Shown here piece after piece: positions 19,082 through 27,098 of a DNA stretch of 64,000 nucleotides; the first letter of the stretch is position 1, and each line of letters begins with the position of its first letter. The notes below the pieces were generated by a model, which searched no databases, was not told the origin of the DNA, and was given only the letters and a program-made list of their open reading frames with translations. The translations under genes and the position numbers were made by a program. The stretch lies in the sequence record KC690136; one strand, written 5' to 3'. This DNA is from Escherichia phage JES2013.

Positions 19082-19315
19082 ATGAAAGTTAAATTTCTTA
19101 CAGATTTAGGGTACCCTTCCTTGGTTGACTGCGTTGGTAAAATTGTGGAAGCAAAACGACTATCTGCAAACGATAATGTTGTCATGGTTAAGGGAAAAGA
19201 TTTACTATCTGCAGGTGCAGAGTCTGGCAGGATCTCTCCTGACTATACGTATTACCTGTCTTTAAGTAATCTACCAGAACGAGGCGGCAAAGGCCTTGAA
19301 GTTGTGGAGGAGTGA
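19082..19315 (+). CDS. small acidic protein, MKVK family paralog
   Basis: AGGAGG RBS; MKVKFL start; KGKDLLSAGA and C-terminal EVVEE shared with paralogs. Confidence 0.5.
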   Translation: MKVKFLTDLGYPSLVDCVGKIVEAKRLSANDNVVMVKGKDLLSAGAESGRISPDYTYYLSLSNLPERGGKGLEVVEE

Positions 19316-19839
19316 CAGGTATGCTACTGGTTGATTGGAAAGATTTTTATGGCGATAAAGACCCGAAAGCATTTATATATAAGCCTTGGAGATACTCAGA
19401 GAGTCAAATTGCTGCAATAAACCTTACAGCAAAGCGCCGAAAAATTATTGAAAGTAAATATAGATACGCCCAGCTAGTGGCTGGTGTTTCTCCACAGGTA
19501 GAGGGTTTTGTACTTAAACTGTACGAAAAGTTTATGAATTACGATTTGTCATTCGTGAAGGTGGGCGAGGATTTATCCCCTGGTAACAACGTAACTCGTT
19601 GGAAAGTTTCGTGTGACAAAAAACTCCCGATCAGTATTGAGGTGTGTCGATACTGGGGGTATCATGATTGTGGATTGTATGACTACCATGATGTGGAAAT
19701 AAAGCCACGCAATCATCTAAGCGACACAGAAAAAGATTACTTGAAGCATGTGATTCTTTCCATGTTTGGAGGGTATATCACAGAGAAAAATAGCGAAGAC
19801 AGAGTATCCTTTCTTAACAGTTTGAACCAGGAGATGTAA
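19312..19839 (+). CDS. hypothetical protein
   Basis: Track ORF, translationally coupled. Confidence 0.45.
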   Translation: MTGMLLVDWKDFYGDKDPKAFIYKPWRYSESQIAAINLTAKRRKIIESKYRYAQLVAGVSPQVEGFVLKLYEKFMNYDLSFVKVGEDLSPGNNVTRWKVSCDKKLPISIEVCRYWGYHDCGLYDYHDVEIKPRNHLSDTEKDYLKHVILSMFGGYITEKNSEDRVSFLNSLNQEM

Positions 19840-19840
19840 T

Positions 19841-20077
19841 ATGGCCATAGATACTGTGTTGGTTTGGTATTGCGCATTGACCTTTCTGACAATGGTTGTT
19901 TTAGCAACTCTTTGCATCATATCTTGTAGAAAAATTAAGTTTGACGACTTTATAACTATAATCACTGCCGCACCTTTTTGGCCTGTCGTTCTCTTCATTG
20001 TTGTTATGTGCTTGGTAGATCACTGTAAAACCGTCAGAAAAATGAAGGAGGCAGATAAGAATGGTAACAGTGACTGA
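19841..20077 (+). CDS. small membrane protein
   Basis: Two hydrophobic segments. Confidence 0.45.
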   Translation: MAIDTVLVWYCALTFLTMVVLATLCIISCRKIKFDDFITIITAAPFWPVVLFIVVMCLVDHCKTVRKMKEADKNGNSD

Positions 20078-20192
20078 AACTGTTTATACTGTTCTTAGGG
20101 AGATTGCATTCTATACAGACCTTAGTTCAGTATCTTCATGGGAAAAGAGTGTGTATTTAAAATGGTGCGTGAAATTAGAGGGGACCTTCTAA
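20061..20192 (+). CDS. hypothetical small protein (43 aa)
   Basis: AAGGAGG RBS 9 nt before ATG 20061. Confidence 0.3.
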   Translation: MVTVTETVYTVLREIAFYTDLSSVSSWEKSVYLKWCVKLEGTF

Positions 20193-20308
20193 TGTTTCAA
20201 GCCATGTTTATTGAAATGCTCTCCGGAGTATTACTGCTGGTAGCCATTTTGGGTGGTGCGGCACTAATGTATAATTATCTTGAAAAAGGAGACAGCAATG
20301 GTAAAAAA
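20192..20308 (+). CDS. small hydrophobic peptide (38 aa)
   Basis: GAGGGGA RBS then ATG 20192; one predicted TM helix. Confidence 0.3.
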
Positions 20309-20483
20309 TAAATCTTTAGAGCAGGCTGAAAACCTTCTCCACGAGCTGGTAAAGGAGTGGAAAGTTGAATACTCAGATTTTAATGCACGAGAGGGTGAAG
20401 ATTATTGGCCTACGGAGCGCTCAGAGGGTGAATGGTATCAAGATTTTATAGAGTGGTTATATCAGACGTGCGATGAGGGGTGA
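20298..20483 (+). CDS. hypothetical small acidic protein
   Basis: AAGGAG RBS then ATG 20298. Confidence 0.4.
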   Translation: MVKNKSLEQAENLLHELVKEWKVEYSDFNAREGEDYWPTERSEGEWYQDFIEWLYQTCDEG

Positions 20484-20941
20484 CGATGTTTGTTAAATAT
20501 GTAAAAACGTGCCTCAACAGCCTTGGCAGAGAGCATTGGTACACCTTGCTTGAAAAAGGAGAGATTTTAACAAAATCTGGAAAGATAACTTTGATACCTC
20601 TTGACAGTAAAGACCCGTCACTACTTGTTATAGATGATTACGTTACAGGTGTGACGTTCGAGGTCTCTGTGGAGAGGTTAATACGCAGAGCTGGCGGCCC
20701 TTGTGATCAAAGAGAGTATGTTTTCGATTCCGTTACAGAGAGGGATCATCCGTCTTTAATGTTCAGGATGGTAATCAGAGATATGAGGTCATCTATAGAT
20801 AGGATCGTAAAGGACATTAAGGAACCTTTTAGAGTAAAAGTTAAGAAGTTTTTTGATTCTAAGATTAACATACTTGCCGTTGTGCTAGGCGTAATTCAAC
20901 TTCTGTTAATTTTGCACTATTTTGAACTGTTGTCTAAGTAG
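20480..20941 (+). CDS. hypothetical protein with C-terminal TM helix
   Basis: Track ORF; hydrophobic C-terminus. Confidence 0.45.
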   Translation: MTMFVKYVKTCLNSLGREHWYTLLEKGEILTKSGKITLIPLDSKDPSLLVIDDYVTGVTFEVSVERLIRRAGGPCDQREYVFDSVTERDHPSLMFRMVIRDMRSSIDRIVKDIKEPFRVKVKKFFDSKINILAVVLGVIQLLLILHYFELLSK

Positions 20942-21001
20942 TGTGCAACAAGGCACAAAGGATGTGCCATAATTAAACAAATTAAGAAAGAGGTAGAGAG
21001 A

Positions 21002-21349
21002 ATGTCAAAGATTAAATCGATATTAATGTGGGTAGCTGTTGTGGCTTTTATAGGGTACTGGGTTTGGGAAACTGAATTAAAAGATATCGGATATACCAGT
21101 CTTGAGAGCAAGGCGTGCATTGGCATAACCGATGCGTTCAGGCAAAACGCTATGGATCACGAATGTGTTGATGCAGATATAGATGAGAAACTGTCTAAGG
21201 ACAAAGATTTTTACCATGGGCATGCTTTGCTTGATAGTGGTGACACTGTAGAGTTCTGGTCGTGGTTCCGTGAAGATGGAACAATAAAAACAGCAGTAAA
21301 GATCTCTAACAAAGAGTTAATGCTGTTGCAGCAGAAGGAGGCTCAATGA
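21002..21349 (+). CDS. membrane-anchored hypothetical protein
   Basis: AGAGGTAGAGAGA RBS; N-terminal TM helix. Confidence 0.5.
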   Translation: MSKIKSILMWVAVVAFIGYWVWETELKDIGYTSLESKACIGITDAFRQNAMDHECVDADIDEKLSKDKDFYHGHALLDSGDTVEFWSWFREDGTIKTAVKISNKELMLLQQKEAQ

Positions 21350-21633
21350 TCTGGATATCCTATACTGATGGCACCATGCTGTATACTGCAGGTACCCGAT
21401 ATGAGGTTCAGGAGGACGATAAAAAATTTATCGTAAAAACATTTGACAAGGACGACAACCTTTTGCTAGAATTGACTTACAAGGTTGGAGAGGTATCCGA
21501 TATCCAATTGGATTGTGGTCATAAAGATAATCCACTCAAAAAACCTGGAATAGGCAAGGCTTCAGAAGAACGTTTGTCTCGTATTGCAGAAAGCGTTTCT
21601 CCCCAAAAATCTAAGAAGAGGAGTAGAAAATGA
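21346..21633 (+). CDS. hypothetical protein
   Basis: ATGA overlap with upstream gene. Confidence 0.45.
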   Translation: MIWISYTDGTMLYTAGTRYEVQEDDKKFIVKTFDKDDNLLLELTYKVGEVSDIQLDCGHKDNPLKKPGIGKASEERLSRIAESVSPQKSKKRSRK

Positions 21634-21830
21634 GTGACAAAATTCTTAAATTTAATACCTACTATGAGAATGATTTGAACGATCTGTATTATATAGTGCG
21701 TAGCGAAAACCCGAATGTAGTACTGTTTTGCCGAGAACCTTTCAAAGGAGAGGAGATTGAATCTACCATGAATGTGGATCAGATTTCACACCTGCTGCTC
21801 CTTGGATCATTAAAAGAGGCTGTATTCTAA
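21630..21830 (+). CDS. hypothetical protein
   Basis: Translationally coupled. Confidence 0.45.
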   Translation: MSDKILKFNTYYENDLNDLYYIVRSENPNVVLFCREPFKGEEIESTMNVDQISHLLLLGSLKEAVF

Positions 21831-21849
21831 ACCAGGGTGGAGGGTTTTT

Positions 21850-22035
21850 ATGAAGCACTATTGTCTGTCTGGTAGAATGGGTGCAGATTGTGATTGGGTT
21901 TTCTTAAAACTTGTCAGTATTCGAGAGTTCATTCCAGAGGAAGAGCAAGAAAGTGAGCTGATGTCATGGATCAACCATTACGGTAACACTTTTCGGCATG
22001 TTAAGGTGGAAGAGTTGCCAAGCGAGGCTGATTGA
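21850..22035 (+). CDS. hypothetical protein
   Basis: Track ORF. Confidence 0.4.
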   Translation: MKHYCLSGRMGADCDWVFLKLVSIREFIPEEEQESELMSWINHYGNTFRHVKVEELPSEAD

Positions 22036-22130
22036 CTATGATTGCATCAATATTAACGTTTATGGGTGGCGTGGCATTCGGATTCATTGTTTGCCTGTTT
22101 ATAGTGATTATGTCTATGCGAGGCTGAATT

Positions 22131-22424
22131 ATGAAACTTTTTGAGTGGTTTAAAAAGTTTAAATATAAAGCTGTAGCCATCGTGCCGTGGTCCATTCAGT
22201 GGGTGGACGATGAGGGATTACCAATTCCAGGTGATAAAGACACGGGATACTGGATCATGCTTGAGAACGGGTTCGGTAAACGGAAATATTCCTGCACGGA
22301 TACCTCAGGAGCATCTTTTAGGAGAATTCCTGGGTATAAATGTATGATTGTGTGGAAGATGTCTGGTGTACCTCCGGCCAATGCACAATATCTTACTACC
22401 AATCCAACCACAGAAGAGGACTAA
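22131..22424 (+). CDS. hypothetical protein
   Basis: Track ORF. Confidence 0.45.
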   Translation: MKLFEWFKKFKYKAVAIVPWSIQWVDDEGLPIPGDKDTGYWIMLENGFGKRKYSCTDTSGASFRRIPGYKCMIVWKMSGVPPANAQYLTTNPTTEED

Positions 22425-22427
22425 GTA

Positions 22428-22709
22428 ATGAAAAAGATTTGCGATACAGATGTGGAGTTCAAGGTGTGTAGTAAGGAGACCTATTGGGAAGTGAGACAAA
22501 AGGTATATTTGTTTGGACTTATCCCATATTGGTCTAAATTCTACTGGGGAGCAGATGAATTAGGGAGATATGCCACCAAAGCTATGGCGCTTATAGGTAT
22601 AGCTGAATATATTGCTGCTAGGGACAGGGCTGGAAAAACCTGCTACTACACTGCTGACGAGATTCGTAACAGTGTTTACGTCCCCCAACCACCTGAAGGA
22701 GACCGTTGA
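22428..22709 (+). CDS. hypothetical protein
   Basis: Track ORF. Confidence 0.45.
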   Translation: MKKICDTDVEFKVCSKETYWEVRQKVYLFGLIPYWSKFYWGADELGRYATKAMALIGIAEYIAARDRAGKTCYYTADEIRNSVYVPQPPEGDR

Positions 22710-22933
22710 TGAAAGTTAAAGTTTTAGATTCAAGCTTCTATATTGGTCAGGAGCCTTTAGTGGGTAAAGTGTTTACCGCTGTCCCTAACGAAGATTATCC
22801 TGATCTTTTAAAAATAAAGGGCGCAGATCTTATTGCCGCTGGTGCATCTCAGGACTGCTTTGACAGCCAGTGGACCTACAACTTTGCCCTAGGTGAGGAT
22901 GTAGAGATAGTGGAGGATGATCATGAAGGTTAA
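22706..22933 (+). CDS. small acidic protein, MKVK family paralog
   Basis: MMKVKVLDSSFYIGQ...IKGADLIAAGA...EIVE; closest paralog is the next gene. Confidence 0.55.
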   Translation: MMKVKVLDSSFYIGQEPLVGKVFTAVPNEDYPDLLKIKGADLIAAGASQDCFDSQWTYNFALGEDVEIVEDDHEG

Positions 22934-23177
22934 AATTCTTGACTCTAACGTCTACTTGGGGCAATCCTTCCTGAAAGGAAAGGTCATCCCTGCGGTATAC
23001 TTTGAAGGGTTGCCGTGGGATGATCCTGTGCGGCAACATCACAGTTATGTAGGCCACAACGTGGTGTTTATCTTAGGATCAGACCTGATCACCGCTGGTG
23101 CACCTGAATATTATTTCGGGGAAGAGTCCTATTATGCCTTTGGGGTAGGGTCAGATGCAGATATTGTAGAGCTGTGA
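22917..23177 (+). CDS. small acidic protein, MKVK family paralog
   Basis: MIMKVKILDSNVYLGQ...LGSDLITAGA...DIVE. Confidence 0.55.
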   Translation: MIMKVKILDSNVYLGQSFLKGKVIPAVYFEGLPWDDPVRQHHSYVGHNVVFILGSDLITAGAPEYYFGEESYYAFGVGSDADIVEL

Positions 23178-23189
23178 TGGGTAACCGTT

Positions 23190-23588
23190 GTGAAAAATAA
23201 ACTGTTCAAAGTTACAATGAAAATTCGCGGAGCTTGGAGCGTAAAGCAAGGGCGTATCCCAGAATTTGAGAAAGATTTCTACGTAGTCTCCACCTCGGAG
23301 GAGGCTGCATGCTGGCAGGCTGGCTATGCCTATGCAAGAACCTGGTACGAAGGATACCAGACTGGGGGCTATGACGGAGAAATTATCAGCAAGGGTGTAG
23401 AAGAAATTAATGTGTTGACAAGTGAAAAAGTTTTTGTTATAGTGCATCCAGATTCCAGAGTGAAGCATTACTGGAATGCCAGAACAAAAACTTGGACACC
23501 GTTTGCAGATTCTGCTACGCCACTTTTAAACCAGAAAGCTCTTGACTCTGCCCCAAGTTATGGGGTTGTTGAAGAAAAGCTAAACTGA
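23190..23588 (+). CDS. hypothetical protein (paralog of 25399-25794)
   Basis: VIVHPDSRVKHYWNARTKTWTP vs VMRHPHSNIAYYWDVLNNEWTP. Confidence 0.5.
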   Translation: MKNKLFKVTMKIRGAWSVKQGRIPEFEKDFYVVSTSEEAACWQAGYAYARTWYEGYQTGGYDGEIISKGVEEINVLTSEKVFVIVHPDSRVKHYWNARTKTWTPFADSATPLLNQKALDSAPSYGVVEEKLN

Positions 23589-23605
23589 AACAGTGAGGTG
23601 TCACC

Positions 23606-23896
23606 ATGATGGATTTAATTCTAAATATTGATAACGCAGAAGAATTTAAAGACGATGGTGTAACAAGCATGGGCAAACCATGCTCTGCTAAGGTTGACTC
23701 AAAATGGACCTACAAGTTTGACGGAGAGATCTTCGCAAATGATGAGAAGGTTGTAGATGCTGCAGCCATTTTAAACGCTCTAGGGTACGACCCTGTGAAT
23801 TCTTTGATCAAGGATCCTGTTGAGTTTGCAGAGTATGTTCGAAAAATGGCAGATCTTGCTGTGGATATTTTAAAAACTATCGACAACAAGCTGTAA
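23606..23896 (+). CDS. hypothetical protein
   Basis: Track ORF. Confidence 0.45.
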   Translation: MMDLILNIDNAEEFKDDGVTSMGKPCSAKVDSKWTYKFDGEIFANDEKVVDAAAILNALGYDPVNSLIKDPVEFAEYVRKMADLAVDILKTIDNKL

Positions 23897-23902
23897 AAAC
23901 TG

Positions 23903-23931
23903 TTGACACAACGCTTCAGATTTAGTATCAT
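23903..23931 (+). promoter_or_regulatory. sigma70-type promoter
   Basis: TTGACA (23903-23908), 17-nt spacer, TATCAT (23926-23931). Confidence 0.45.
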
Positions 23932-23978
23932 TGTTTTCAAAGAGGGTTTGGTTCCCTCTTCTTTAAAAGGAACATGTT

Positions 23979-24296
23979 GTGCAAATTGAAATCACTGGCA
24001 ACGTAGAGATCACTGAAGGTATGGTGTCTTTCATTTCCCACAAAATGTCTAAGCTGGAGCGTTTGCACCCCTCTGCCAACTATGCACGTGTGAGTGTAAA
24101 AGTTGAAAATGATCACCAGGAAGTCATGGCGTTCATTTTTGACACTTCCGGAAAAGAAGTTATTGCCAAAGCTAAAGGCAGTAACGCTTACGAGGCAACT
24201 GACCGTATGGTAGATGTTGCAGCACGTCAGTTGGCTAAATGCGGTGGAAAGAAAGGTAAAGGGAAAGGCAAAGTAAAGATTGACTTTGGAGAATGA
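23979..24296 (+). CDS. hpf: ribosome hibernation promoting factor homolog (HPF/RaiA, S30AE family)
   Basis: GTG start; MQIEITGNVEITEG...KLE...VKVEN...ARQLAK aligns along its length with E. coli HPF MQLNITGNNVEITEA...KLE...LKVEK...ARQLTK; Lys/Gly-rich tail. Confidence 0.75.
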   Translation: MQIEITGNVEITEGMVSFISHKMSKLERLHPSANYARVSVKVENDHQEVMAFIFDTSGKEVIAKAKGSNAYEATDRMVDVAARQLAKCGGKKGKGKGKVKIDFGE

Positions 24297-24305
24297 GGTG
24301 CTACA

Positions 24306-24407
24306 ATGGGCGTGATTAAGAAATTAGTCCCAAATGTAGAGATTGCATGCTTTGAAATTATGTTTGCAATCGCAGTTGTAGTTAATGTGTTAGGTTACGG
24401 CTATTAA
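24306..24407 (+). CDS. small hydrophobic peptide (33 aa)
   Basis: GAGGTG RBS then ATG 24306; one TM helix. Confidence 0.3.
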   Translation: MGVIKKLVPNVEIACFEIMFAIAVVVNVLGYGY

Positions 24408-24433
24408 TATCAAATAATTGAGGAGACCTCTAA

Positions 24434-24703
24434 ATGAAAATTAAATTATTCAAAACTGAGCTGGCAGACAAAAACTGTGGACTGGTTGAAGGCATGATCG
24501 TTGAAGCACAACCAGTGGACTACATGAAGGTAGTTCGTGATGCCTTGGGTGAAGGCTTTGATCTGATGGAGCCAGCTCTGCGAGAAGATGTTATCGAGAT
24601 GGCTAAAAAGCACACACCTGAAGGCTTGGTGGTGTTTGTTGCACCGGGTAACGGAGAAGAGTTGATTGTAACTCCTGATGTGTATGAGATTGTAGAAGAG
24701 TAA
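24434..24703 (+). CDS. small acidic protein, MKVK family paralog
   Basis: MKIKLFK start, C-terminal YEIVEE; GAGGAG RBS. Confidence 0.5.
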   Translation: MKIKLFKTELADKNCGLVEGMIVEAQPVDYMKVVRDALGEGFDLMEPALREDVIEMAKKHTPEGLVVFVAPGNGEELIVTPDVYEIVEE

Positions 24704-24798
24704 TCCTGCTCGGATTAGCATACTTCTCTCAATAAAAAGAAAAGTTTGTAATTATTTGTGGGAAAGGAATCCCCATCTCTTGCCAGAGGTGATACTAT

Positions 24799-25062
24799 AT
24801 GATTGTTTATTTTAAAACTTCAGGTGGATACCCTGATTCTCAAAGCTTGATCGGAAAAACGTGCACAGCATACTCACCTCTTGATGAGGAGGTAAGCGAT
24901 ATTCTACGAGATATGTATCGGATTGATCCCCAAAAAGCTTTTGATCAAAACCTTGTATTTGTCAAGGGCTCAGACATGAAGTCTTTGGGAGCATTCCCTG
25001 AAGCAGATGATGATGCCGTTTATTCGTTCATGACTCCTTTTGAAGCTATGGTTGTTGGGTGA
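24799..25062 (+). CDS. small acidic protein, MKVK family paralog
   Basis: VFVKGSDMKSLGA motif shared with family. Confidence 0.5.
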   Translation: MIVYFKTSGGYPDSQSLIGKTCTAYSPLDEEVSDILRDMYRIDPQKAFDQNLVFVKGSDMKSLGAFPEADDDAVYSFMTPFEAMVVG

Positions 25063-25066
25063 GAAT

Positions 25067-25399
25067 ATGAAAGTACGATTTATTGGTGAAACAATTCCTG
25101 TGCATCTCCGGTCGCCTGAAGATTCTGCAGATCTTGCATCTCAGAAGGCGAGAGGTTATGATAAGAAAGTAATCTCAAACGCTGTAGAACTTGAGGCTAC
25201 TAGTTTACCTGACCCTGCCGCATTCTTTAATCATTATGGATACTATTTCAGCAATCTGATGAATATCGGTGAGCTTGTGTTTATTAGTGGTGGAGAAATT
25301 GTTAGCAAGCTTGGCGGCGATCCGGATGTCTTTCATGAAACCTGTCCTTTTGCATTTGTGGTAGGTTCAGATGTGGAAGTTATTGAGGAGGTGCGGTAA
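25067..25399 (+). CDS. small acidic protein, MKVK family paralog
   Basis: MKVRFIG start (internal ATG of track ORF 25040); C-terminal VEVIEEV. Confidence 0.5.
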   Translation: MKVRFIGETIPVHLRSPEDSADLASQKARGYDKKVISNAVELEATSLPDPAAFFNHYGYYFSNLMNIGELVFISGGEIVSKLGGDPDVFHETCPFAFVVGSDVEVIEEVR

Positions 25400-25794
25400 T
25401 GGTAAGACTATACCGTGTTGAGTATAGCTCAGATACTGTATACAACGTAAGAAGCAAAGATCGCAGCGACAGAGTGCAAGAAATGTATGTTCTTGCCGAC
25501 AGTCCGTTATCTGCAGCGTTCAAGGCAGGGTCTCTTGCATCTCGTTGGAAATTTGAAGGTGGATCTTTCTATGAAGAAACCCTTGAAGATTCTGTTGTTA
25601 TTTCTTCTGCAGAGGTTTCAGATGACTACGAAGGGAAAAAGTTCGTAATGCGGCACCCACACAGCAACATTGCGTACTACTGGGATGTTCTGAACAACGA
25701 GTGGACCCCAGATCTTCAGAAGGCCACTGTGCTAACACCGTTTTTGGCAGATAAGTTTCCACCAGAAGGTAATTTATCCGCACTGTTTCAGTAA
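25399..25794 (+). CDS. hypothetical protein (paralog of 23190-23588)
   Basis: Shared HP.S...YW...N.WTP core. Confidence 0.5.
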   Translation: MVRLYRVEYSSDTVYNVRSKDRSDRVQEMYVLADSPLSAAFKAGSLASRWKFEGGSFYEETLEDSVVISSAEVSDDYEGKKFVMRHPHSNIAYYWDVLNNEWTPDLQKATVLTPFLADKFPPEGNLSALFQ

Positions 25795-25870: not shown

Positions 25871-26131
25871 TTGATGAAGATTAAATTGAAAAACCTTGAA
25901 ACGGCAGAGATTCAGGACGGTGTGGATTTCCGTTCTAAAGATGGTGACATCTTAGAGGTAAATATTCCAACCTACGAGCTGATCAAAGGTTTTGGCAACG
26001 TCCCCGAGGAAGGTATCGCAGACGTTCTTATAATGTTAATCGTTAGTGGGACAGTGTTCTTGGGGGAAGGTGAGAACGCTATTGCAATCCCAAGCCATTT
26101 TTATGAAGTAGTTGACGAAGAGGCGCTGTAA
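25871..26131 (+). CDS. small acidic protein, MKVK family paralog
   Basis: MMKIKLKNL start, C-terminal EVVDEEAL. Confidence 0.5.
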   Translation: MMKIKLKNLETAEIQDGVDFRSKDGDILEVNIPTYELIKGFGNVPEEGIADVLIMLIVSGTVFLGEGENAIAIPSHFYEVVDEEAL

Positions 26132-26482
26132 ATGAAAGTAGAAATTACTGGTTTTGATGTGAATGTGGTTCCGGAAGATATTTTAGCTAAACTCCCGGAA
26201 GGTTTTGGTAACGGTGTTGTGGTGGATGCTGTTCCTCCTACCAAAGACATTCTGCTGCAGTATGGTGTAGCAGAGGAAGATGTTGATAAAGTTCTTACAA
26301 TGATGGCAATCGATCGTGTTGTCGTTGTTAAAGGTCTCGATAATTTTGAGAGTGATCCTCTGATTATTCGTGGAGATGACTACAAAATCATCGATAATGA
26401 AGGCCAAGAGTTCTATGAGCCTTGTGCAGAAGATATTCTTAACTTATTACTGGAAGCAGGCACCGAAGAGGAGGACGAATAA
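26132..26482 (+). CDS. small acidic protein
   Basis: MKVEITG start, acidic C-terminus EEEDE. Confidence 0.5.
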   Translation: MKVEITGFDVNVVPEDILAKLPEGFGNGVVVDAVPPTKDILLQYGVAEEDVDKVLTMMAIDRVVVVKGLDNFESDPLIIRGDDYKIIDNEGQEFYEPCAEDILNLLLEAGTEEEDE

Positions 26483-26811
26483 TGAAGATTGACCCGTTAC
26501 TGAAGGCTCGTGCAGAAAAAGCGTACACCATTAAGCTGACCAACCTGGTTCCTACTTGTCATCCAGATGTAGGTTGGCCCGAAGGTTTGGTGGAGGGAAC
26601 TGTAACAGCTGCATACCTTCCTAACATCAAATACCTCATGGAGATCTTAGAGATGGATGAGGAAACTGCAGAACAGTTCCAGTTGGATATGAAACAGAGT
26701 GGGACTCTGGTTATTCACGGGTGGTATAATACTAAAGATGCAGAAGACCCTCTGGTAACTTCTAATCTGGCATATGAAATCTTAGGGCCTTTGAACCTGG
26801 AGGAAGACTAA
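26482..26811 (+). CDS. small acidic protein
   Basis: Track ORF, translationally coupled. Confidence 0.5.
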   Translation: MKIDPLLKARAEKAYTIKLTNLVPTCHPDVGWPEGLVEGTVTAAYLPNIKYLMEILEMDEETAEQFQLDMKQSGTLVIHGWYNTKDAEDPLVTSNLAYEILGPLNLEED

Positions 26812-27098
26812 TGAAAGATCTGGTTAAGATTAAGATTAAAGATACCAATGGGGAGCTCAGCCATTTTGGAATTAATGATGGTGACGAGCTGATCGCACAC
26901 CTGCCTACCAAGGAGGTTGTAAGCAAAGCAGTTGCCGGAGAAGAAGCTGCAATGCAGGCTGCAGGTGTGGATGAAAACTATGTAGCTATGTGCATGTGCC
27001 GAGATCAGGTTGTTCTGTATAAAGCGTATCGACCAAACGGAGCCACGGAGTGGCTTGTATTCCGACCCGAAGGATATGAAATCTTAGAGGCACTATGA
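26811..27098 (+). CDS. small acidic protein
   Basis: Track ORF, translationally coupled. Confidence 0.5.
   Translation: MKDLVKIKIKDTNGELSHFGINDGDELIAHLPTKEVVSKAVAGEEAAMQAAGVDENYVAMCMCRDQVVLYKAYRPNGATEWLVFRPEGYEILEAL

What the first reader, a model, noticed from the sequence alone, without database searches (positions are those of the whole stretch)
22706..25794. Duplicated three-gene cassette
The order two small MKVK-family genes plus a 131-132 aa gene occurs twice (22706-23588 and 24799-25794). The larger proteins share VIVHPDSRVKHYWNARTKTWTP / VMRHPHSNIAYYWDVLNNEWTP. This points to a segmental duplication followed by divergence, with the HPF gene lying between the two copies.
Basis: seen in the sequence. 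Interest (0 to 1): 0.5.

Follow-up and report, generated by a model that had tools for sequence, protein, structure and literature searches.

The report
Two diverged paralogous gene modules flanking phage HPF
In an rV5-like E. coli phage, two small genes followed by a ~130-residue gene occur twice around the phage's ribosome-hibernation gene; the genes are genuine ancient paralogues of unknown function, but the history is stepwise duplication and deletion rather than one clean three-gene copy, which is ordinary for phage accessory regions.

Summary
The window is Escherichia coli O157 typing phage 4, a Vequintavirus (rV5-like). B (23190-23588) and B' (25399-25794) are true paralogues: 27% identity, profile-profile E 7e-17, both in phrog_7379. 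All four small genes belong to one family (A) of acidic proteins predicted to form SH3-like beta-barrels. The A-A-B order occurring twice is unlikely by chance (p about 1e-3 or less).

The simple "one three-gene segmental duplication" reading is only partly supported, for four reasons.
- A1 and A2 are each other's closest relatives (75-93% bootstrap). The pairings expected for an en-bloc copy, A1-A3 and A2-A4, get 14% or less.
- A fifth A gene sits alone at 19082-19315.
- Two more distant phage lineages carry A1-A2-X with no B, or X-Y-B with no A genes and no second module. The A2-B adjacency here is therefore probably secondary.
- Natural variants collapse A1/A2 into one hybrid gene, or delete module 1 entirely.

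All copies are under purifying selection (dN/dS 0.05-0.16), and synonymous sites between paralogues are saturated. Both families are confined to this phage lineage and have no known function. A host-interaction role is inferred only. This is an ordinary accessory-gene paralogy, of low to moderate interest.

The parts
19082..19315 (+). A5: fifth, solitary member of the small-protein family A (77 aa). It is not followed by a B-type gene.
   Evidence: phmmer against A1 gives E 1e-5. Shuffle z is 16.3 against A1. hhalign A1-A5 gives 97% probability. It is conserved in the L002 and L005 lineages. The downstream g19321 is unrelated to B (probability below 1%).
22709..22933 (+). A1: first small gene of module 1 (74 aa from the ATG; the ORF opens at TTG 22706). 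Acidic (pI 4.05), predicted SH3-like beta-barrel.
22923..23177 (+). A2: second small gene of module 1 (84 aa), tandem paralogue of A1 with a loop insertion. Its start overlaps the end of A1.
   Evidence: phrog_5009, E 8e-32. A1-A2 z 23.7 and hhalign 98.8%. The (A1,A2) split has 75-93% bootstrap. dN/dS 0.16.
23190..23588 (+). B: 132-aa protein (GTG start), paralogue of B'.
   Evidence: phrog_7379, E 4e-74. 27% identity to B' over 128 columns. hhalign E 7e-17. The N-terminal strand aligns with B', P0013 and P0014, which supports the 23190 start rather than the annotated 23217. dN/dS 0.05.
23606..23896 (+). g23606: 96-aa gene between the modules. It belongs to neither family.
   Evidence: phrog_12029. 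Orthologues are present in the L002 and L005 lineages. Only a weak 11-column match to A1 (probability 22%).
23979..24296 (+). HPF: ribosome hibernation promoting factor homologue lying between the two modules.
   Evidence: Pfam PF02482, E 7e-12. Annotated hpf in KP869102. Already described for rV5 in PMC6375957. Absent from the L005 lineage.
24434..24703 (+). g24434: member of a second, unrelated paralogue family (C) that continues downstream at 25874-27098.
   Evidence: hhalign g24434-g25871 95% and g24434-g26811 90%. A versus C 1%.
24799..25062 (+). A3: first small gene of module 2 (87 aa), the most divergent A-family member.
   Evidence: phrog_13920, plus a weak phrog_5009 hit at 1e-4. hhalign gives A3-A5 90%, A3-A2 85%, A3-A1 77% and A3-A4 only 13%. 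dN/dS 0.07.
25067..25399 (+). A4: second small gene of module 2 (110 aa from the ATG; the ORF opens at 25040). A-family member with two insertions.
   Evidence: phrog_13661. A2-A4 z 9.6 and hhalign 94% over the C-terminal 39 columns. A nucleotide patch 23132-23171 versus 25348-25387 is 75% identical. dN/dS 0.06.
25399..25794 (+). B': 131-aa paralogue of B. Its start overlaps the A4 stop by one base.
   Evidence: phrog_7379, E 8e-66. Orthologue P0013 lies in the same position in the L002 lineage. dN/dS 0.06.

Best explanation
The region holds two anciently diverged paralogous gene modules in the accessory, same-strand small-gene arm of an rV5-like myovirus. This arm lies downstream of PhoH and ClpP and is presumed, but not shown, to be early or host-takeover genes.

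Each module encodes two small acidic proteins of family A (predicted SH3-like beta-barrels) followed by a ~130-aa protein of family B. The modules arose by duplication within this phage lineage, but stepwise rather than as one three-gene block.
- B was copied once, possibly together with its upstream A neighbour, before the rV5 and L002 lineages split.
- A1 and A2 arose by a separate tandem duplication.
- A fifth A gene sits elsewhere in the arm.
- Loss of two intervening genes (X and Y) later placed A2 directly next to B.

Both modules are kept by purifying selection, yet module 1 can be lost in the laboratory.

Shown here: the paralogy, family membership, gene orders in relatives, selection, and the deletion and fusion variants. 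Inferred: the order of events. Inferred with low confidence: the function. I take the proteins to be binders or inhibitors of host macromolecules, whose duplication let them diversify against variable host targets or defences.
For: Identity: the window matches KP869102, a Vequintavirus, at 100%.

Paralogy.

Non-random order.

Stepwise history:
- The (A1,A2) split has 75-93% bootstrap, while the splits predicted by an en-bloc copy get 14% or less.
- A5 is solitary and is the only A gene shared by all three lineages.
- The L002 lineage has g22428-A1-A2-X-g23606-HPF-g24434-A3-A4-B'.
- The L005 lineage, in eight contigs, has g22428-X-Y-B-g23606-...-g24434-g25871.

Age: third-codon-position identity of every paralogue pair is 0.29-0.42, against 0.27 expected at random.

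Selection: dN/dS is 0.05-0.16 against an 80-90% identical relative. About 115 Vequintavirus records keep both B and B'.

Plasticity and dispensability:
- An A1/A2 hybrid gene joined at an 11-nt microhomology occurs in L022 and L023.
- A B-g23606 fusion exists as P0004.
- Phage EduardKellenberger lacks window ~19.7-23.5 kb, including A1, A2 and most of B, and still grows on K-12.

Protein character: A proteins have pI 4.05-5.4. The A1 model is a confident small beta-barrel.

Lineage restriction: no homologues exist outside these three phage types among 5.8 billion and 1.84 billion sequences, and none in the syntenic region of Seunavirus PVP-SE1.
Against: - A4's best match is A2 (the positional counterpart), and A2, A3 and A4 share an insertion in the same loop. 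This fits co-duplication of more than B alone.
- Relationships among A3, A4 and A5 are unresolved.
- All pairs are saturated, so greater A1-A2 similarity could reflect constraint rather than a younger age.
- No genome with the inferred intermediate order A1-A2-X-Y-B was found.
- Whether the L005 state is ancestral or derived cannot be polarised, because outgroups lack both families.
- No expression, interaction or phenotype data bear on function.
- The promoter and terminator scans were not above chance.
Confidence: 0.55

Rival explanations
1. One en-bloc segmental duplication of a ready-made three-gene cassette (A-A-B) was followed only by divergence, and HPF and its neighbours ended up between the copies.
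For: The A-A-B order occurs twice with p of about 1e-3 or less. B-B' and A2-A4 are collinear paralogues, including two collinear nucleotide patches. All inter-module pairs are similarly saturated. A variant in which A-A-X-Y-B was copied and X-Y was later lost twice needs about as few events as any other history (gene orders).
Against: The (A1,A2) split has 75-93% bootstrap, (A1,A3) 1-9% and (A2,A4) 2-14%. A3-A4 and A1-A3 are among the weakest pairs. Recent gene conversion cannot explain A1-A2 closeness, because their third-codon-position identity is 0.29. Module 1 is not inherited as a unit in the L002 and L005 lineages.
Confidence: 0.2
2. The two modules are not intragenomic duplicates. One module, or B' with A3-A4, was imported by recombination from a diverged relative. 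The like order reflects a functional A-B unit that travels together.
For: Phage accessory arms are mosaic. The L005 lineage lacks module 2 and HPF altogether. Divergence is too deep to distinguish paralogues from xenologues. The genes are tightly packed, with A4 and B' overlapping by 1 nt and A1 and A2 by 11 nt, which is compatible with co-expression as units.
Against: Both families occur only in these three closely allied phage types among billions of sequences, so no external donor is visible. A1-A2 exists without B in L002, and B without any A gene in L005, which argues against an obligate A-B unit.
Confidence: 0.15
3. B-family proteins are ribosome-directed factors that work with the phage HPF. 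The modules cluster around HPF for that reason.
Against: Only one of the five AF2 models reached pLDDT 77; the others were 52-59. An independent BFVD model of the V18 orthologue superposes at only TM 0.47-0.50. PurS and other generic alpha/beta sandwiches score similarly. There is no sequence-level link in Pfam or among PDB sequences. The L005 lineage has B but no HPF. rV5 HPF itself was not recovered in ribosome fractions (PMC6375957).
Confidence: 0.05

Closest known systems
PHROG families phrog_7379 (B and B') and phrog_5009 (A1 and A2), both of unknown function
   Same: B and B' match phrog_7379 end to end (E 4e-74 and 8e-66). A1 and A2 match phrog_5009 (E 1e-38 and 8e-32). The pairwise paralogy is therefore already implicit in a public classification.
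   Different: PHROGs splits A3 (phrog_13920) and A4 (phrog_13661) into separate families. It says nothing about order, history or the fifth member. Here, profile-profile comparison unites A1 to A5.
Lineage-specific paralogue arrays in accessory or early regions of large virulent phages, and viral 'gene accordion' expansions (general knowledge)
   Same: The genes are small, tightly packed, on one strand, lineage-restricted and multiplied by tandem or segmental duplication. Unequal-recombination collapse products (the A1/A2 hybrid) and deletions occur in natural isolates.
   Different: The copies here are ancient (synonymous sites saturated) and stably retained in about 115 genomes. This is not a recent copy-number response. 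No target or selective agent is known.
SH3-like small beta-barrel domains (PsaE, Spt5 KOW, eukaryotic SH3)
   Different: There is no sequence relationship (12-15% identity). No Pfam hit and no convincing PDB-sequence hit (one marginal match, 3liu_A, E 0.028). The fold class is generic and does not imply a function.
Phage-encoded HPF (Ribosomal_S30AE) of rV5-like phages, Mizuno et al. 2019 (PMC6375957)
   Same: The gene between the two modules is this known HPF.
   Different: HPF is not part of either paralogue family. It is absent from the L005 lineage, which still has B.

Membership tests
B family (phrog_7379) | Full-length match of both 131-132-aa proteins to one family profile, and to each other | tested here: met
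   phrog_7379 E 4e-74 and 8e-66, covering positions 1-131 of 131. hhalign B-B' 98.8% probability, E 7e-17, 123 columns. There are 15 invariant columns across B, B', P0013 and P0014, including the F..HP.S....W motif.
A family (phrog_5009 extended) | All four small genes of the two modules are homologous to one another | tested here: met
   A1-A2 98.8%, A2-A4 93.9%, A1-A4 86%, A2-A3 85%, A1-A3 77% and A3-A5 90%. Shuffle z 5.5-23.7. A3-A4 compared directly is weak (13%), so A3 joins the family only through A5, A2 and A1.
Single 'MKVK' superfamily covering all small genes of the array | Homology between family A and the downstream small genes (g24434, g25871, g26132, g26482, g26811) | tested here: not met
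   hhalign of A versus C gives probability 1%, with only the 8 N-terminal residues aligned. Group-wise probabilities are below 7%. The C genes form a family of their own (84-95%).
En-bloc three-gene segmental duplication | Positional orthology: A1 pairs with A3, and A2 pairs with A4, in the family tree | tested here: not met
   Bootstrap support is 1-9% for (A1,A3), 2-14% for (A2,A4) and 75-93% for (A1,A2).
En-bloc three-gene segmental duplication | The module is inherited as a unit in related genomes | tested here: not met
   L002 has A1-A2-X without B. L005-type genomes have X-Y-B without A genes. Module 2 is intact in L002.
En-bloc three-gene segmental duplication | Residual nucleotide similarity or duplication junctions | tested here: inconclusive
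   Only two short collinear patches remain (40 nt at 75% and 82 nt at 63%). Third codon positions are at random level. No flanking repeats were found. This is expected for any ancient event.
Ribosomal_S30AE / HPF (PF02482) | Match above Pfam's gathering score | tested here: met
   46.4 bits against a cut-off of 23.7, E 7e-12, for 23979-24296. This applies to the intervening gene only.
eL20/L18a/LX-like fold (for B) | Confident structural model that superposes specifically on LX domains | tested here: inconclusive

The most novel reading that the evidence does not exclude
B and B' could be a new class of phage ribosome-associated proteins with an eL20/LX-like fold. In this reading they act together with the phage HPF that they flank, and the small SH3-like A proteins act as their partners or adaptors. 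The duplicated modules would then be two variants of a translation-takeover device.
Probability: 0.05. Interest if true: 0.6.

Novelty: new member of a known kind. Interest (0 to 1): 0.22.

Why it matters
Twelve of the sixteen annotated genes between 22.7 and 27.1 kb, plus A5 at 19.1 kb, belong to three lineage-specific paralogue families: A with five members, B with two and C with five. This arm of rV5-like phages was therefore built largely by internal duplication, with ongoing fusion and deletion.

That gives a tidy natural series for testing what these orphan genes do: the full set, an A1/A2 hybrid, a module-1 deletion in a BASEL phage, and two lineages with B only or B' only. Vequintaviruses are used in phage-therapy cocktails and as model broad-host-range coliphages. 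Beyond that, the finding does not change current understanding.

Tried and rejected
- Chance similarity: rejected by shuffle z-scores and the permutation test.
- Nucleotide-level duplication: only two short patches survive, and synonymous sites are saturated.
- Recent gene conversion as the cause of A1-A2 closeness: rejected, because third-codon-position identity is 0.29.
- A single superfamily covering all 'MKVK' genes: rejected, because A versus C gives probability 1%.
- g19321, the gene after A5, as a cryptic third B that would make a third A-B unit: rejected, probability below 1%.
- A related to B: no.
- Pfam domains for any A or B protein: none at E up to 1.
- PDB sequence-profile searches: nothing significant.
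- Distant homologues were sought with two single-sequence searches, one profile word-index search and one full HMMER profile search. Only the three phage types were found. The large-protein hits P0016 and P0017 are repeat artefacts on a 'YYW' motif.
- GTDB species genomes: no locus.
- Search for an intermediate gene order (A1-A2-X-Y-B) using X as the probe, in IMG/VR and JGI metagenomes: only L005-type loci.
- The syntenic region of Seunavirus PVP-SE1: no A, B, C, X or Y genes.
- Promoter and terminator scan for repeated regulatory elements bounding the modules: counts not above shuffles, and no shared flanking repeats.
- The afdb50 fold library was unavailable.
- Literature: only the HPF gene has been discussed. 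Nothing was found on these families or on the expression timing of this arm.
Full report
**Identity and context**

The 3.8-kb region matches Escherichia coli O157 typing phage 4 (KP869102.1; Vequintavirus, rV5-like) at 100%. It matches about 115 other Vequintavirus records at 90-99%. In the GenBank record every gene here is 'hypothetical' except hpf.

The genes lie in a long same-strand array of small ORFs downstream of PhoH and a ClpP-like protease. The window contains no tRNA genes.

**Checking the observation**

- Module 1: A1 22709-22933 (ORF from 22706), A2 22923-23177, B 23190-23588.
- Module 2: A3 24799-25062, A4 25067-25399 (ORF from 25040), B' 25399-25794.
- Between them: g23606, HPF (23979-24296; Pfam PF02482, E 7e-12), a 33-codon ORF and g24434.

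Both quoted motifs are present.

It fails to refute. In an all-against-all Smith-Waterman comparison with shuffling of 28 array proteins, the eight best pairs are all within family A or are B-B'.

| Pair | z |
|---|---|
| A1-A2 | 23.7 |
| A5-A1 | 16.3 |
| B-B' | 16.2 |
| A2-A4 | 9.6 |
| A1-A4 | 7.9 |
| A5-A2 | 7.7 |
| A5-A3 | 6.9 |
| A2-A3 | 5.5 |

These values are. blastp and phmmer agree.

PHROGs puts B and B' in phrog_7379 and A1 and A2 in phrog_5009. A3 hits phrog_5009 weakly, and A3 and A4 have families of their own.

I then built profiles from orthologue groups. B-B' gives 98.8% probability (E 7e-17, 123 columns). The A genes are linked at 77-99%, except for the direct pairs A3-A4 (13%) and A4-A5 (12%).

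Given five A genes and two B genes in an array of 30-45 genes, 'AAB' occurring twice has p = 2e-5 to 1.5e-4. If tandem pairs are treated as units, p = 1-3e-3.

**What else is there**

- A fifth A gene (A5, 19082-19315) sits 3.4 kb upstream. The gene after it (g19321) is not B-like (probability below 1%).
- g24434, g25871, g26132, g26482 and g26811 also start with MK(I/V)K, but they form a separate family C (84-95% among themselves) with no detectable relation to A (1-7%).
- Twelve of the sixteen annotated genes between 22.7 and 27.1 kb therefore belong to three paralogue families. With A5 upstream, this arm was built largely by internal duplication.

**Age and selection**

At aligned codons, third-position identity between paralogues is 0.29-0.42, against 0.27 expected from composition. 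This includes A1-A2 (0.29) and B-B' (0.29). All duplications are therefore ancient, and there has been no recent gene conversion.

Only two short collinear nucleotide patches survive: the A2 end against the A4 end, and the B motif against the B' motif.

Against an 80-90% identical relative (L006), dN/dS is 0.05-0.16 for all six genes, like their neighbours. Both B and B' are present in essentially all Vequintavirus records. These are real, maintained genes.

**Testing the en-bloc model with trees**

A single three-gene duplication predicts that A1 pairs with A3 and A2 pairs with A4.

I ran neighbour-joining bootstraps on window, L006 and L002 orthologues under two alignment methods and two gap treatments.

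| Split | Bootstrap support |
|---|---|
| (A1,A2) | 75-93% |
| (A1,A3) | 1-9% |
| (A2,A4) | 2-14% |
| A3, A4, A5 relationships | unresolved |

Profile scores add a nuance. A4's best partner is A2, and A2, A3 and A4 share an insertion in the same loop. Co-duplication of B with one upstream A gene therefore remains possible.

**Testing the model with relatives**

Word-index and full HMMER searches of billions of proteins found both families only in three phage types. The gene orders were obtained.

| Phage type | Gene order |
|---|---|
| rV5 type (this window, L006) | g22428-A1-A2-B-g23606-HPF-g24434-A3-A4-B'-g25871 |
| L002 type (three contigs) | g22428-A1-A2-X-g23606-HPF-g24434-A3-A4-B'. No B is present; X is an unrelated basic 96-aa protein |
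| L005 type (eight contigs from five datasets) | g22428-X-Y-B-g23606-...-g24434-g25871. No A1/A2, no HPF and no module 2 |

A5 is present in all three types.

X is shared by the L002 and L005 types, and B by the rV5 and L005 types, at the same place. The simplest common ancestor therefore had ...(A1-A2)-X-Y-B-g23606... The rV5 lineage then lost X-Y and the L002 lineage lost Y-B. The A2-B adjacency seen in this window is thus probably secondary.

Whether the L005 state (single B, no module 2) is the single-copy ancestor or a loss cannot be decided. The unrooted B tree fits both readings. The next outgroup (Seunavirus PVP-SE1) has homologues of g20280 and g22131 in its syntenic arm but no A, B, C, X or Y genes. 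No genome with the inferred intermediate order was found.

**Ongoing plasticity**

- Some contigs carry a single A1/A2 hybrid gene (P0010; L022, L023) followed by B. It is joined at the 11-nt identity CCGCTGGTGCA shared by A1 and A2.
- P0004 fuses the B C-terminus to g23606.
- BASEL phage EduardKellenberger has an in-frame deletion of about 3.8 kb, from g19321 into B. It removes A1, A2, most of B and about a dozen other genes but keeps module 2. The phage plates on E. coli K-12.

Module 1 is therefore dispensable in the laboratory.

**What the proteins are**

No Pfam domain was found, and no PDB sequence relative.

The A and C proteins are strongly acidic (pI 4.0-5.4). B is near neutral and B' is acidic.

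**Most likely mechanism**

What is shown is two anciently diverged, selectively maintained paralogous modules produced by stepwise duplication within this phage lineage, with later deletions shaping the present order.

What is inferred, with low confidence, is the function. These appear to be accessory host-interaction proteins: small acidic binding modules plus a ~130-aa partner. They are dispensable on a permissive laboratory host, and their duplication allowed diversification of targets.

The promoter and terminator scans gave nothing above chance, and I found no expression data.

**Comparison with what is known, and verdict**

The pairwise paralogy is already implicit in PHROGs. HPF in rV5 is published. 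Paralogue arrays, unequal-crossover collapse and deletions in accessory arms of large phages are well known.

New here are the unification of A1 to A5, the separation of family C, the three-lineage gene-order comparison, and the natural deletion and fusion series. This is a new member of a known kind. Interest is low to moderate.

Noticed in passing
window 24434-24703, 25874-26131, 26132-26482, 26482-26811, 26811-27098: These five genes form a second paralogue family (C) of small, very acidic proteins (pI 4.0-4.8). Profile-profile probabilities are 84-95% among members. The family is unrelated by sequence to family A despite the shared MK(I/V)K start. Four members already exist in the distant L005 lineage.
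   Followed up: partly
L020 (MZ501061.1, phage EduardKellenberger) 3635-4102; corresponds to window ~19690-23503: A natural in-frame deletion of about 3.8 kb fuses the N-terminal ~122 residues of g19321 to the last ~26 residues of B. The product is annotated 'putative glycosidase'. The deletion removes about 14 genes, including A1, A2 and most of B, and the phage is a viable BASEL isolate.
   Followed up: yes
L022 and L023 3001-3213; window 22838-22848 and 23094-23104: Some relatives carry one 70-aa A1/A2 hybrid gene instead of the tandem pair. The crossover lies at the 11-nt identity CCGCTGGTGCA shared by A1 and A2, which indicates unequal recombination between tandem paralogues.
   Followed up: yes
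L002 8068-8358; L005 9343-9642 and 9652-10014; L019 5247-5981: Two genes absent from this window (X, a basic ~96-aa protein, and Y, 120 aa) occupy the slot upstream of B or g23606 in related lineages. In L005 Y overlaps B by 14 nt in another frame. In L019 Y and B are one fused 244-aa ORF.
   Followed up: partly
window 23190-23217: The GenBank annotation starts B at ATG 23217 (123 aa). Alignment with B', P0013 and P0014 shows the conserved first beta-strand lies upstream, which supports the GTG start at 23190 (132 aa).
   Followed up: partly
window 22860-22886 and 23694-23720: A 27-nt stretch of A1 (FDSQWTYNF) is 78% identical to a stretch of g23606 (DSKWTYKF). The profile-profile match is weak (probability 22%, 11 columns). 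It may be a remnant of an A-type gene inside g23606, or chance.
   Followed up: partly
P0004 (metagenomic protein, 107 aa): This is a fusion of the C-terminal half of B to the C-terminal half of g23606, joined around ...TPFAD/AAAILN... It is another deletion variant in this slot.
   Followed up: no
B model against BFVD: The second-best viral structural hit is a 185-aa protein of Escherichia phage 4MG (V5KSY8; E 0.014, 20% identity). It may be a remote B relative in another Vequintavirinae genus. The sequence could not be retrieved, and the query model is unreliable.
   Followed up: no
L005 13532-14644: The L005-type phage carries an IS605 OrfB / Cas12f-like TnpB gene (370 aa) inside the same small-gene arm, a few kb downstream of the B locus.
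   Followed up: no
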